Positions 53,328 through 64,000 of a stretch of DNA of 64,000 nucleotides are shown here, piece after piece. Made by a program: the position numbers and the translations under genes. Under the pieces are notes generated by a model that made no database searches, was not told the DNA's origin, and was given only the letters and a program-made list of their open reading frames with translations. Location: NCBI GenBank assembly GCA_040399845.1, contig JBBARN010000007.1:8071-72070 (forward strand). Reading direction: 5' to 3'. This DNA is from Luteolibacter sp. Lineage in GTDB: Bacteria > Verrucomicrobiota > Verrucomicrobiia > Verrucomicrobiales > Akkermansiaceae. How positions within the stretch are numbered: position 1 is the first letter of the stretch; each line of letters begins with the position of its first letter.

Positions 53328-55055
53328 TCAGGGCAGGAACTTGGGATTCGCGTATTCATTCGAATCAAAGTACTTCTTGAAGTTCTCCTGGCTGAGCTTC
53401 ACCGGCGACCCGCCGTTCTGGGGGTGGAAGGTGACGTTCTTGAAGACGGGTGAGTCCTTCCACGGAGTTTTTTCGGTGCCGATGAGTTTGTTCCGGATCT
53501 TGGGATTCACCGGCAGGTAACAGGAAATGTTTTCAAAGGTCAGGCCGGTGAAGCTGACGCCCGCCTCCCCCCCGGTGGAATCCAGATCAAAAACCGCCAT
53601 ATTCGACATCCTGTCATGCAAGCGAACGTCCTTGATGGTCACGTTGACTTTGATGATCCGGTCTTTCGTGCCGGTATTACTGATGGTGAAAACCTTGCCA
53701 TTGAAGCCGCTCGGCTCGCGGAGACGATGGTAGATGATGTCGCAGTCCTCCATTCGTAGCGTCGTCCCGTCTCCCCAGTTCTTAAGCCGCACCATCCTGG
53801 CATTCGAGTCTTTCCATAAGGTGCAACGCAGACGGTTGCCATTGAGCACCGTGGTGTCATCCGCTGTCCTCATAAAGCAGTCCTCCAACGGCAGTGCTCC
53901 CCCGATGCCGTCACCATTGGTTCGCCAGGTGATCACCTTCGTCCATGAGATCCTGCTATCGCCGTAGCCCTTGCGCGTGGGCAGGATGAAAGCGGCAAAG
54001 TTCGCGGAATCCGTGATCGTGATGCCGTCCACGGTGACGTCTTTGGAGTTGTTAAAATGCAACGCTTGAGCCCCGTCTGTATCAGTGGGATAGTTTGTAT
54101 TTTTCACCTGATCGGTTGATCTGTATTGGAAATGCGGGTTGTAGAAACCGGACAGGGTTCCATAACCACGGACCGTGACTCCATCGGCACTGCCCGAGGT
54201 AAAGTTCCCATAGAGGATCGCATCACCGGGAATGAAAACTTTCTTCCCCGCGCCGAGTTCGACCAAGCCGATGAAATGCACACCCGGACCGAAAACCAGG
54301 GTGTCGTAATCCACCGGATCTTTGGTGAATTTCCCGCCTGCGTTCACATGGCGGACGCCGGGACCGCTTGCAGGCGGCTTTTCCATGACCGGATTAGCAA
54401 AAAACGACACCGAATGCACCGGCCCTTTCTGTTTGTGCTCCGGAAAGGCCGTGTTGTGATCGTCCATCTGGCCATTGGGGTCGATGACCAACTGGCAGGG
54501 TTTTTTCACTGTGAAATAGACTTTGCCATCACGAACATTCTTGTGGGAGACCTTGTGGGCGGGATGAACGCCGGATTTTTGAATCACATCAAGTCCGTCC
54601 AGCAATGCATCGCCGATCTTGCTGATCTCAACCTCGACGGTTGAATCATCACTCATTTCGATATTGGCATAAGTGTGCGACCAACCGCTGGTGTGGCGCT
54701 GGTAACCCTGCCTGACAAGCGGATTGGTATTTCCGTGGGTGGCATCCATCTTGGGCAATTCCGCCGCCCGATTGTAAGTGTAGTGGGCGAAACACTGAAC
54801 CCACTGCAAGTCCGTGGCCCGCGAGCGCACCCGGATTTCAAAAACGGAAGACTTGGCGCGGGGATCGACGTTGTGGAACTTGGTCTCGTGACCCGGCACA
54901 TCGGTGTAAACCACCAGTTTCTCAGAACCCGTCTGATAGACCTTCATGGAAGGCGTAGACTGCTTCGGATCAAGTCCTGCCTGCATGTCCCGCATGCTCA
55001 GGAAAAAAGCTGAAAGAAAAATGAAGGCGCACGAGGCGAAATTACGTCTGGGCAT
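53328..55055 (-). CDS. GH28/GH49-like right-handed beta-helix glycoside hydrolase, paralog 1
   Basis: Signal peptide from ATG 55055; TWRTNGDG...RTADD Asp cluster. Confidence 0.7.
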   Translation of the reverse strand: MPRRNFASCAFIFLSAFFLSMRDMQAGLDPKQSTPSMKVYQTGSEKLVVYTDVPGHETKFHNVDPRAKSSVFEIRVRSRATDLQWVQCFAHYTYNRAAELPKMDATHGNTNPLVRQGYQRHTSGWSHTYANIEMSDDSTVEVEISKIGDALLDGLDVIQKSGVHPAHKVSHKNVRDGKVYFTVKKPCQLVIDPNGQMDDHNTAFPEHKQKGPVHSVSFFANPVMEKPPASGPGVRHVNAGGKFTKDPVDYDTLVFGPGVHFIGLVELGAGKKVFIPGDAILYGNFTSGSADGVTVRGYGTLSGFYNPHFQYRSTDQVKNTNYPTDTDGAQALHFNNSKDVTVDGITITDSANFAAFILPTRKGYGDSRISWTKVITWRTNGDGIGGALPLEDCFMRTADDTTVLNGNRLRCTLWKDSNARMVRLKNWGDGTTLRMEDCDIIYHRLREPSGFNGKVFTISNTGTKDRIIKVNVTIKDVRLHDRMSNMAVFDLDSTGGEAGVSFTGLTFENISCYLPVNPKIRNKLIGTEKTPWKDSPVFKNVTFHPQNGGSPVKLSQENFKKYFDSNEYANPKFLP

Positions 55056-55063
55056 GGGATGGA

Positions 55064-55255
55064 TTACTTTTTGGCTTGAAAGAAATCGAGGGACGAGCCG
55101 TCGAAGAAAACGTCCTTGGTGTTCCGGGCTGCCGCCATCAGCGGACGGGCATCCGCCGAGGCTTGAGTCACCCGGATTTCCTCGAATCGCATGCGTTGGG
55201 CATGGCGCACATAGATGCCATGGGTAGGCAGGCCGTTTTGTCTTTGAATCCCTTT
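55064..55255 (-). pseudogene. Startless 63-codon relic resembling a GH28 C-terminus
   Basis: GLPTHGIYVRHAQRMRFEEIRVTQASADARP, in frame directly after the TGA of paralog 2. Confidence 0.5.
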
Positions 55256-63741: not shown

Positions 63742-63776
63742 GGTGATTTTCTGGAACGTATTCCGAGTGGAATGGG

Positions 63777-64000
63777 TTATTTTTCAAAGACGCTTTTATC
63801 AACGAATTCGTTGGTTTCGAAGTAGTCTTTGTAATTGCGTTGGGTGAGTTTTGCTGGAGGAGTTCCGTGCAATCCGTTTTGGAATGTGAAATTTTTGAAA
63901 GCCAGATTTTTTCCATTCAAGGGAGCTTCCGCAGTGCCATAAAGTTGGGATTTCTTCTGATCGACCGTCACATAAGCCGAAATGTTCTCAAAGACAAGAT
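63777..64000 (-). CDS. C-terminal part of beta-helix paralog 4 (cut by window edge)
   Basis: KLTQRNYKDYFETNEFVDKSVFEK matches the C-termini of paralogs 1-3. Confidence 0.7.
   Translation of the reverse strand, partial: LVFENISAYVTVDQKKSQLYGTAEAPLNGKNLAFKNFTFQNGLHGTPPAKLTQRNYKDYFETNEFVDKSVFEK

What the first reader, a model, noticed from the sequence alone, without database searches (positions are those of the whole stretch)
53328..64000. Tandem array of at least four paralogous GH28/GH49-like beta-helix enzymes
Seen: three complete paralogs and one partial one share YTDVPG, WVQCFA, HTYANIEM, GQMDDHN, W.NGDG...DD and a YF.[ST]NE[YF] tail; GGCACATCGGTGTAAAC is identical in the three complete genes. 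Established: GH28 (NTD..DD) and GH49 (QTD..DD) use three Asp in this spacing, and GH49 has an N-terminal beta-sandwich. Inference: a possibly unclassified clan GH-N family expanded locally, with divergent active-site loops tuned to variants of one polysaccharide.
Basis: partly seen in the sequence, partly recalled or inferred. Interest (0 to 1): 0.62.

Follow-up and report, generated by a model that had tools for sequence, protein, structure and literature searches.

The report
Tandem GH49-like beta-helix glycosidase array
A freshwater Verrucomicrobial genome carries five side-by-side copies (plus a sixth elsewhere) of a secreted sugar-cutting enzyme that Pfam and NCBIfam do not recognise; it is a distant relative of the dextranase/isopullulanase family GH49 and sits in a sulfatase-rich locus, so it most likely cuts an unidentified sulfated polysaccharide.

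Summary
Three complete paralogs and one truncated one lie head to tail on the minus strand, with 43-64% protein identity, and all quoted motifs are present. In the whole genome the array has five copies, and a sixth lies on another contig.

No copy matches a Pfam or NCBIfam model. A 56-sequence family profile does hit GH49 structures: isopullulanase at E=2.4e-12 and Dex49A at E=1e-5. In that alignment NGDG...DD falls on the catalytic QTDG...DD.

An AlphaFold model (pLDDT 91) has an N-terminal beta-sandwich plus a right-handed beta-helix. Its best PDB matches are all GH49 (E~1e-15, TM~0.6), followed by GH28 and GH87. The three Asp are invariant in 196 family members.

The family has at least 284 clusters at 50% identity. 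It occurs in aquatic Verrucomicrobiota, Planctomycetota, Bacteroidota and Lentisphaerota. Its members are named 'hypothetical' or, without testing, 'endo-polygalacturonase'.

Recurrent neighbours are sulfatases and a GH138-like gene that often lies directly adjacent. The home locus adds GH95, a BT3686-like protein, a distant GH5-like protein and an ECF sigma/anti-sigma pair.

Most likely these are secreted inverting clan GH-N hydrolases acting on a sulfated, probably acidic, algal or cyanobacterial glycan. The substrate and CAZy status are untested. Interest is moderate.

The parts
53328..55055 (-). Paralog p1, about 575 aa from M69. The ORF stays open upstream to 55259. The M69 start gives a signal peptide (MPRRNFASCAFIFLSAFFLS...).
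   Evidence: family HMM score 711.9
55256..57040 (-). Paralog p2, 594 aa, with a signal peptide. This copy was used for the structure model.
55763..55825 (-). Catalytic coil of p2: N406-G-D408-G409 ... D425-D426. It aligns with the QTD353G ... D372-D373 of GH49 isopullulanase.
   Evidence: D/D/D invariant in 196 of 196 family rows
57052..58176 (-). 374-aa secreted protein between p2 and p3. A homolog has a weak Pfam Cellulase (GH5) match (E 9e-5). The gene keeps its place next to the p2 ortholog in a relative, at 81% identity.
61972..63741 (-). GH49-like catalytic module of paralog p3 (residues 1 to about 590 of the 1851-aa protein).
58186..61971 (-). C-terminal extension of p3: an InlB B-repeat-like domain, a Gly_rich_2 domain, PATR/autotransporter-type beta-strand repeats and a C-terminal domain.
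63777..64000 (-). C-terminal 73 residues of paralog p4. The gene continues beyond the window (whole ORF = L085:48-2033, 661 aa). p5 (1053 aa, with Gly_rich_2 and Flg_new_2) follows p4.
49847..53140 (-). Neighbour: 1097-aa BNR_4 / BT3686-like (GH145/PL42-type) beta-propeller with an F5/8 type C domain.
46110..49754 (-). Neighbour: 1214-aa surface protein with a Gly_rich_2 domain, which p3 also carries.
41517..43591 (-). ECF sigma factor (42932-43591) and a FecR/CBM96-type anti-sigma factor (41517-42968). The same pair sits next to the p2 ortholog in a relative.

Best explanation
The paralogs encode secreted, two-domain glycoside hydrolases of clan GH-N. Each has an N-terminal beta-sandwich and a right-handed beta-helix, and each uses a GH49/GH28-type trio of aspartates (D408, D425, D426 in p2). 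That trio should hydrolyse an axial (alpha-D or beta-L) glycosidic bond with inversion of configuration.

The family is a deep, uncharacterised sister lineage of GH49 and lies outside the Pfam GH49 and GH28 models.

The array belongs to a long same-strand glycan-degradation locus. The locus holds an ECF sigma/anti-sigma pair, a BT3686-like protein, a GH5-like protein, GH95, a GH138-like protein, a DUF5060 protein, two sulfatases and a PhoD-like protein.

The paralogs most likely act as the endo-depolymerases that open a sulfated, probably uronic-acid- and deoxyhexose-containing, algal or cyanobacterial polysaccharide outside the cell. p1, p2 and p4 would be released as soluble enzymes. p3 would be held at the cell surface by its long C-terminal extension; p5 also carries a C-terminal extension, though no sorting domain was identified in it.

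Shown: the paralogy, the fold prediction, the conserved catalytic residues, the homology to GH49 and the gene neighbourhood. Inferred: hydrolase activity, the inverting mechanism, endo action, the sulfated acidic substrate and the division of labour among paralogs.
For: Homology and fold:
- The family profile hits GH49 isopullulanase 1wmr/3wwg (E 2.4e-12) and Dex49A 1ogm (E 1.1e-5). NGDG and DD align on the catalytic QTDG and DD, and further shared motifs follow: WK[DE]S and DxDVI[YH].
- The AF2 model has pLDDT 91.3 and pTM 0.90.
- The seven best Foldseek matches are all GH49 (E 6e-16 to 6e-15, TM 0.53-0.65 over about 630 columns, so both domains align). GH28 follows at 4e-7 and GH87 at 4e-4.
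- D408, D425 and D426 are invariant in the 56-sequence alignment and in 196 of 196 rows, including all six own copies.
- Signal peptides are visible in the N-termini.

Context in the own genome:
- BT3686-like protein.
- GH95, a Kelch protein, a GH138-like protein (PDB 6hze, E 9e-12), a DUF5060/Collagen_bind_2 protein, two sulfatases and a PhoD-like protein.
- ECF sigma and FecR.

Context across 79 loci:
- The cluster holding the sulfatases is present in 29 loci; through single linkage it also took in one FAD-oxidoreductase.
- The GH138-like gene is present in 19 loci and is directly adjacent on the same strand in about 12 loci from about five phyla.
- SASA esterase, GH16 and GH43 also recur.
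Against: - No biochemical data exist for any member.
- Sequence identity to GH49 structures is only 12-14%.
- The Pfam GH49 catalytic model does not match any family member or anything else in the genome.
- Sulfatases are abundant in PVC genomes, so their presence in 29 of 79 loci is only a modest enrichment. I did not compute a background rate.
- The GH138 similarity covers only about 140 N-terminal residues.
- The locus composition does not match any described polysaccharide-utilisation pathway, so the substrate is a guess.
- Endo versus exo action cannot be read from sequence.
Confidence: 0.7

Rival explanations
1. They are members of CAZy GH49 in its already recognised 'distant' branch, whose B. 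plebeius representatives are endo-acting sulfated-arabinan (beta-L-arabinopyranan) hydrolases. On this reading the array degrades green-algal sulfated arabinan, and the family is not new.
For: Helbert et al. 2019 (PMC6442616) showed that two distant GH49 relatives, EDY96541.1 and EDY96565.1, cleave the sulfated arabinan of Chaetomorpha and Cladophora. The best structural and profile matches here are GH49. Sulfatases are frequent neighbours. An earlier AI note on another genome (e1-5170198) reached a similar reading for a different GH49-like gene.
Against: No L-arabinose catabolic genes or arabinosidase-type families were seen in the home locus. No P. plebeius protein appeared in either word-based search, although those searches are not exhaustive. 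No paper in the library links GH49 with sulfatase loci of PVC bacteria. I could not fetch the B. plebeius sequences, so this rival is untested and not excluded.
Confidence: 0.2
2. They are polygalacturonase-type enzymes that are functionally GH28-like. They would cleave alpha-1,4-linked galacturonic acid, or another alpha-linked uronic acid, in a pectin- or RG-II-like polymer, as the database name 'endo-polygalacturonase' of the Planctomycetota clade suggests.
For: The p6-type clade carries the name endo-polygalacturonase (Rhodopirellula europaea EMB18014.1 / WP_144054672.1). Eight of 56 members give weak Pfam GH28 hits (best 3.5e-7). A relative of the GH138 alpha-galacturonidase is the most consistent direct neighbour. 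The GH95 and DUF5060 (GH140-like) neighbours recall the RG-II degradation apparatus; that comparison comes from my own knowledge of the Bacteroides RG-II PULs.
Against: p1-p6 are not detected by Pfam GH28, while five canonical GH28 genes in the same genome are. The GH28 signature motifs GHG and RIK are absent, with WKD... in their place. The N-terminal beta-sandwich and the best structural matches are GH49. The database name is an untested automatic annotation.
Confidence: 0.2
3. They are alpha-glucanases like classical GH49 (dextranase or isopullulanase) acting on dextran, pullulan or glycogen-like storage glucans.
For: The nearest solved structures are dextranases and isopullulanase, and the catalytic triad is the same.
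Against: Identity to those structures is 12-14%, and the Pfam GH49 model fails. The neighbours are sulfatases, GH95, a GH138-like protein and a BT3686-like protein, with no alpha-glucan utilisation genes. A five-fold tandem expansion fits a heterogeneous substrate better than a homopolymer.
Confidence: 0.05
4. They are non-hydrolytic beta-helix proteins: adhesins, binding modules or polysaccharide lyases/epimerases. The beta-helix would then be only a scaffold on surface proteins such as p3.
For: p3 and p5 carry long surface-protein extensions (PATR, Gly_rich_2, InlB-like repeats). Beta-helix adhesins, lyases and epimerases appear far down the Foldseek list.
Against: The three Asp are conserved in all 196 sequences, exactly in register with the GH49 catalytic residues. 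The short secreted forms p1, p2 and p4 have no adhesin modules. The neighbours are all glycan-degrading enzymes.
Confidence: 0.05

Closest known systems
GH49 (clan GH-N): Aspergillus niger isopullulanase (1wmr/3wwg), Penicillium minioluteum Dex49A (1ogm), Arthrobacter oxydans dextranase (6nzs)
   Same: Both have a two-domain architecture of an N-terminal beta-sandwich plus a right-handed beta-helix. The Asp...Asp-Asp catalytic trio is in register. The following motifs WK[DE]S and DxDVI[YH] are shared. The profile E-value is 2.4e-12, and Foldseek gives E~1e-15 with TM~0.6.
   Different: Identity is 12-14%. There is no match to the Pfam Glyco_hydro_49 catalytic model, and only 4 of 56 members give faint Glyco_hydro_49N hits. 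The spacing between the first Asp and the DD pair is 17 residues, against 19 in isopullulanase as read. The hosts are aquatic PVC bacteria and Bacteroidota. The genomic context is sulfatase-rich and not alpha-glucan-related.
'GH49_dist' enzymes of Bacteroides plebeius DSM 17135 (EDY96541.1, EDY96565.1): endo-acting sulfated arabinan hydrolases (Helbert et al. 2019, PMC6442616)
   Same: These too are distant GH49 relatives, and they act on a sulfated algal polysaccharide. That is the kind of substrate the neighbourhood suggests here.
   Different: The relationship was not tested because the sequences were not obtainable with these tools. No arabinose-related genes were seen in this locus.
GH28 polygalacturonases / rhamnogalacturonases (e.g. 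2uve, 1bhe, 3jur)
   Same: They share the same clan, the beta-helix, the inverting Asp trio and the motif N-x-D ... D-D. They are the second tier of structural matches (E 4e-7 and weaker). Some family members give weak Pfam GH28 hits.
   Different: p1-p6 are not detected by Pfam GH28, whereas five true GH28 genes in the same genome are. The GHG and RIK motifs are missing. The N-terminal domain is of GH49 type.
GH87 alpha-1,3-glucanases (5zru, 6k0q, 7c7d)
   Same: Beta-helix hydrolases with three catalytic Asp; weak structural matches.
   Different: Much weaker similarity (E 4e-4 and weaker, TM 0.3-0.4).

Membership tests
GH49 (Pfam PF03718 + PF17433; CAZy GH49) | Significant match to the family's catalytic-domain sequence model | tested here: not met
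   No Pfam hit for p1-p3 at E<=0.1. None of the 56 family members hits PF03718 at E<=10. PF03718 finds nothing in the whole genome at E<=10.
GH49 (Pfam PF03718 + PF17433; CAZy GH49) | Detectable sequence homology to experimentally characterised GH49 enzymes | tested here: met
   The family profile against PDB sequences gives isopullulanase at E 2.4e-12 and Dex49A at E 1.1e-5, over about 250 residues of the beta-helix. A single sequence finds nothing.
GH49 (Pfam PF03718 + PF17433; CAZy GH49) | N-terminal beta-sandwich followed by a right-handed parallel beta-helix | tested here: met
   AF2 model with pLDDT 91.3. Foldseek aligns about 610-660 columns with GH49 structures at TM 0.53-0.65. This rests on a predicted structure, not a solved one.
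GH49 (Pfam PF03718 + PF17433; CAZy GH49) | Three catalytic aspartates (Asp353/372/373 in isopullulanase; Asp376/395/396 in Dex49A) in register | tested here: met
   D408, D425 and D426 of p2 align with them. They are invariant in 56 of 56 sequences and 196 of 196. The residue numbers of the GH49 enzymes come from my own knowledge of the structure papers.
GH49 (Pfam PF03718 + PF17433; CAZy GH49) | Assignment by CAZy / dbCAN GH49 model, and clustering with the B. plebeius distant branch | not testable with these tools
   No dbCAN library is available, and the sequences of EDY96541.1/EDY96565.1 could not be fetched (no supplements held).
GH49 (Pfam PF03718 + PF17433; CAZy GH49) | Inverting hydrolysis of dextran, pullulan or sulfated arabinan | not testable with these tools
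   Needs enzymology.
GH28 | Match to Pfam PF00295 above the gathering score | tested here: not met
   None for p1-p3. The genome-wide search finds five other genes but none of p1-p6. Eight of 56 relatives give weak hits, the best at 3.5e-7.
GH28 | Four signature motifs NTD, G/QDD, G/SHG and RIK | tested here: not met
   The family has NGD and xDD, but WKD follows where GHG would be, and no RIK is present (direct reading). The motif list comes from my own knowledge.
Clan GH-N | Right-handed beta-helix catalytic domain with an inverting Asp trio on one coil pair | tested here: met
   The fold is predicted, and the mechanism is inferred from homology.
PATR/autotransporter-repeat surface proteins (p3 only) | PATR / TIGR02601 beta-strand repeats in the C-terminal extension | tested here: met
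   PF12951 at E 8.6e-17 and TIGR02601 at 2.8e-17.

The most novel reading that the evidence does not exclude
The clade is a new glycoside hydrolase family (or a deep new GH49 subfamily) of clan GH-N with a specificity not yet described. It would be the endo-hydrolase partner of a GH138-like exo-enzyme in a conserved, cross-phylum two-gene module. That module would attack a sulfated acidic polysaccharide abundant in lakes and coastal waters. Lineage-specific tandem expansions, five copies here and five or six in a Flavobacteriaceae MAG, would track substrate heterogeneity.
Probability: 0.4. Interest if true: 0.6.

Novelty: new variant of a known kind. Interest (0 to 1): 0.45.

Why it matters
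Sulfated algal and cyanobacterial polysaccharides are a large and slowly degraded carbon pool. The enzymes that make the first cuts are mostly unknown, and this is especially true for the PVC bacteria that specialise on these polymers.

This family is large: at least 284 clusters at 50% identity have full-length matches. It is widespread in aquatic Verrucomicrobiota, Planctomycetota, Bacteroidota, Lentisphaerota, Kiritimatiellota and Armatimonadota. Pfam and NCBIfam annotation does not see it, and some members carry the untested name polygalacturonase.

Defining its activity would add a missing depolymerase class to PUL prediction. It would give a function to the conserved pairing with the GH138-like gene. 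It would also provide a natural set of five diverged paralogs for studying how specificity evolves on a beta-helix cleft.

If it turns out to fall in the existing 'distant GH49' sulfated-arabinan branch, the value drops to a new set of members with good genomic context.

Tried and rejected
- Single-sequence searches found nothing useful: Pfam and NCBIfam and phmmer against PDB. The only hint was a sub-threshold rhamnogalacturonidase match for p1 (E 0.048).
- Single-sequence AlphaFold failed with pLDDT 30 and was discarded. The alignment-based run was used instead.
- I tried to link the family to the characterised B. plebeius GH49_dist enzymes. The question stays open.
- Literature searches for GH49 in sulfatase-rich or PVC loci found nothing relevant.
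- Recent gene conversion as the source of the shared 17-mer is rejected. The paralogs are only 71-80% identical in DNA even in their best blocks, and the 17-mer encodes the conserved VYTDVP.
- The idea that the whole five-copy array is conserved in close relatives is rejected. The 82% ortholog of p2 sits with only the GH5-like gene and the ECF sigma/FecR pair, with no further family member nearby.
- PDB sequence searches for the 374-aa GH5-like protein and the 1072-aa DUF5060 protein gave nothing.
- Mapping paralog differences onto the 3D model was not possible, because the model coordinates are not exposed to the Python box. Only a linear conservation profile was made, and its residue numbering is approximate.
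Full report
**1. Observation**

The region 53328-64000 holds, on the minus strand:
- p1 (53328-55259),
- p2 (55256-57040),
- an unrelated 374-aa gene (57052-58176),
- p3 (58186-63741, 1851 aa), and
- the C-terminal 73 residues of a fourth copy that runs off the window (63777-63998).

A MAFFT alignment shows full-length colinearity of p1, p2 and the first ~590 residues of p3. Identities are 64% (p2/p3), 48% (p1/p2) and 45% (p1/p3). The p4 fragment aligns on the C-termini.

All quoted motifs are present. The only deviation is that p2 ends HFETNEF and not YF.[ST]NE[YF].

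The 17-mer is found exactly three times, against 0 expected. It is the antisense of the VYTDVP codons. The paralogs are otherwise only 71-80% identical in DNA, so it marks a conserved motif and not gene conversion.

The likely start of p1 is M69 (55055), which yields a signal peptide. The ORF stays open a further 68 codons upstream, to a start that overlaps the stop of p2.

**2. Extent**

The window is G000:C7:8071-72070. A search of the whole assembly with the family profile finds six copies:
- p1-p5 lie in one array on C7:61407-76843.
- p6 lies on contig C10.

p4 is a 661-aa ORF. p5 is a 1053-aa protein with Gly_rich_2 and two InlB-B-repeat-like domains. All six keep the motifs and the three aspartates.

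**3. What the protein is**

Single sequences hit nothing in Pfam, NCBIfam or PDB.

The word-indexed search returned 114 homologs. They are all 'hypothetical' or named only after accessory domains.

I built a 56-sequence alignment, A1. Its invariant columns include N406, D408, G409, D425 and D426.

As a profile, A1 hits the sequences of GH49 structures:
- isopullulanase 1wmr/3wwg at E 2.4e-12,
- Dex49A 1ogm at E 1.1e-5,
- a GH28 exo-polygalacturonosidase at E 0.07.

In the printed alignment, NGDG lies on QTDG and DD lies on the last two Asp of HTDDD. With the 15-residue offset of the mature chain these are Asp353, Asp372 and Asp373, the catalytic residues of isopullulanase (numbering from my own knowledge of the structure paper). 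The similarity continues downstream: FWKD aligns with MWKE, and EDCDVIY with DNVDVIH.

AlphaFold2 run with A1 gives pLDDT 91.3 and pTM 0.90. The model is an all-beta protein: a sandwich at about residues 35-195, then a long series of short strands typical of a beta-helix.

Foldseek against the PDB puts only GH49 entries in the top seven:
- They are 3wwg, 6nzs, 1wmr and 1ogm, with E 6e-16 to 6e-15 and TM 0.53-0.65.
- About 610-660 columns align, so both domains are covered.
- GH28 follows (2uve, 4e-7), then GH87 (4e-4).

The refutation condition 'the fold is not a beta-helix' is therefore not met.

**4. Membership**

- The Pfam GH49 catalytic model (PF03718) matches none of the 56 members at E<=10. 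Four members give faint Glyco_hydro_49N hits (best 0.0023), and eight give weak GH28 hits (best 3.5e-7).
- Run over the whole genome, PF03718 finds nothing.
- PF00295 (GH28) finds five other, canonical GH28 genes but none of p1-p6.
- The family has NGD and DD but lacks the GHG and RIK motifs of GH28.

The family thus works like a clan GH-N enzyme and is closest to GH49, yet it fails the available sequence-model tests for both GH49 and GH28.

CAZy's own boundary could not be tested. This matters because CAZy GH49 already includes 'distant' members from Bacteroides plebeius that cleave sulfated arabinan of green algae (Helbert et al. 2019, PMC6442616). I could not obtain those sequences.

**5. 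Size and distribution**

An exhaustive HMMER search over 1.84 billion representatives gives 284 clusters at E<=1e-30, 1581 at E<=1e-10 and 2799 at E<=1e-3. The top 150 all have near full-length matches, and many sit inside multidomain proteins of 900-2200 aa.

In GTDB species genomes, relatives occur in several phyla:
- Verrucomicrobiota (Akkermansiaceae, Luteolibacter, Haloferula),
- Planctomycetota (Rhodopirellula europaea 6C, Rubripirellula and others),
- Bacteroidota,
- Lentisphaerota,
- Kiritimatiellota (Pontiella sulfatireligans),
- Armatimonadota, and a few others.

Most of these are lake, river or marine MAGs.

The only functional name found is 'endo-polygalacturonase' or 'glycoside hydrolase family protein', on the Planctomycetota clade. 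That is an automatic annotation.

**6. History of the array**

In a FastTree of 196 sequences, p1-p5 all fall in one Verrucomicrobiota-dominated clade (51 rows, support 99), which is nested among Bacteroidota clades.

Each paralog has its own closer orthologs:
- p2 with P0001, 88%;
- p1 with P0025, 80%;
- p3 with P0122, 79%;
- p4 with P0012.

p5 is a long basal branch. p6 belongs to the separate Planctomycetota/Verrucomicrobiota clade.

The duplications are therefore lineage-local but old.

Array size varies between genomes. In the contigs that carry the 82% ortholog of p2, only that copy is present. It is flanked by the ortholog of the 374-aa gene (81%), a PATR protein and an ECF sigma/FecR-CBM96 pair.

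Independent arrays exist elsewhere: five or six copies in a Flavobacteriaceae MAG (L015), three in Pontiella (L065), and pairs in several other loci.

**7. Neighbourhood**

In the home genome the array lies in a run of at least 18 minus-strand genes:
- a FecR/CBM96 anti-sigma factor and an ECF sigma factor;
- an FAD oxidoreductase;
- a 243-aa protein of unknown function;
- a 1214-aa Gly_rich_2 surface protein;
- a BNR_4 protein related to BT3686 (GH145/PL42 type; NCBIfam E 1e-30) with a discoidin domain;
- p1, p2, the GH5-like 374-aa protein, p3, p4 and p5;
- GH95;
- a Kelch propeller;
- a 749-aa protein whose N-terminal ~140 residues match the GH138 alpha-galacturonidase BPa0997 (6hze, E 9e-12);
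- a 1072-aa DUF5060/Collagen_bind_2 protein;
- a sulfatase, a PhoD-like protein and a second sulfatase.

I clustered all ORFs of 79 loci:
- The cluster holding the sulfatases is present in 29 loci. Single linkage also drew the FAD oxidoreductase into that cluster.
- The GH138-like protein is present in 19 loci. In about a dozen of them, spanning about five phyla, it is directly adjacent on the same strand.
- SASA-type esterases, GH16, GH43, PhoD-like, DUF4832 and GH42-like proteins also recur.

I did not compute a genomic background, so the sulfatase enrichment is qualitative. The cross-phylum adjacency with the GH138-like gene is the stronger signal.

**8. Mechanism proposed**

Shown:
- a secreted two-domain GH49-like protein,
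- an invariant Asp trio in register with GH49,
- a glycan-degradation context rich in sulfatases.

Inferred:
- Hydrolysis is inverting, single-displacement, at an axial anomeric bond, as in GH28 and GH49.
- The enzymes act endo on a sulfated, probably uronic-acid- and fucose/rhamnose-containing polysaccharide.
- The neighbouring exo-enzymes and sulfatases finish the degradation.
- The ECF sigma/anti-sigma pair controls expression.
- The paralogs share the work between soluble forms (p1, p2, p4) and the surface-tethered p3; p5 also carries a long C-terminal extension.

Among p1-p5, the N-terminal sandwich is the most conserved part (mean pairwise identity 0.56-0.65). The catalytic coil region comes next (about 0.52-0.58). 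The coils on either side of it are least conserved (0.32-0.46) and hold the indels (the residue numbering is approximate). This fits divergence in the substrate cleft but does not prove it.

**9. Verdict**

The family is uncharacterised and invisible to Pfam and NCBIfam, but mechanistically it is a variant of a well-known enzyme class. It may already fall inside CAZy GH49's distant branch. It is a good candidate for enzymology, though not a surprise in kind. Interest is 0.45.

Noticed in passing
L085:8854-11103 (own genome, C7 about 80.6-82.9 kb); also L041:616-2817, L013, L031, L044, L062, L074 and others: A ~730-750-aa protein family has only a faint Pfam Glyco_hydro_20b hit, and its first ~140 residues match the GH138 alpha-galacturonidase BPa0997 (6hze, E 9e-12). 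It lies directly next to the GH49-like gene on the same strand in about a dozen loci from about five phyla. This looks like a conserved two-gene module.
   Followed up: partly
window 57052-58176 (-): A 374-aa secreted protein has no Pfam, NCBIfam or PDB sequence match. A Flavobacterium homolog has a sub-threshold Pfam Cellulase (GH5) hit (E 9e-5). It keeps its position immediately upstream of the p2 ortholog in a relative (81% identity) and recurs in Flavobacterium and Armatimonas loci. It is possibly another unclassified TIM-barrel glycosidase.
   Followed up: partly
window 58186-61971 (p3 C-terminal part); L085:1892-5053 (p5); homologs P0026-P0060 and P0116-P0125: The module 'InlB B-repeat-like + Gly_rich_2 (PF21722)' is fused behind the GH49-like domain in both Verrucomicrobiota and Bacteroidota. 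In Bacteroidota a T9SS sorting domain follows it, sometimes with a malectin domain. The same Gly_rich_2 domain also occurs without the enzyme in the neighbouring 1214-aa protein (46110-49754). Its role is unknown.
   Followed up: no
window 55056-55259: The ~200-nt stretch between p2 and the probable start of p1 is open in two frames. One is the 68-codon upstream extension of the p1 ORF, whose ATG overlaps the p2 stop. The other, according to another first-stage note, is the p2 frame continuing after its TGA. No homolog supports either extension in the alignments I made.
   Followed up: no
L015 (uncultured Flavobacteriaceae MAG, contig CAVQGP010000007.1), 6209-14819: An independent tandem array of five or six family members follows GH43 and a sulfatase. 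Its copies fall in different deep Bacteroidota clades of the tree.
   Followed up: partly
own genome G000:C7:99057-99839 (-), about 22 kb beyond the array; also C27, C80, C60, C50: The genome has five canonical GH28 genes that score above the Pfam cut-off, one of them on the same contig. The organism therefore has classical polygalacturonase-type enzymes in addition to this family.
   Followed up: no
window 43512-45143 (-) and 41517-43591 (-): An FAD_oxidored (PF12831) protein sits beside the ECF sigma and FecR/CBM96 anti-sigma pair at the edge of the glycan locus. The anti-sigma factor carries a carbohydrate-binding-module-like domain (CBM96, E 3e-4), which suggests direct glycan sensing.
   Followed up: no
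L006, L055, L058, L064, L068 (record titles): Several lake-water MAGs that carry family members are titled 'Akkermansia muciniphila' in their records. This is implausible for the habitat and the gene content, so the taxonomy labels are probably wrong.
   Followed up: no
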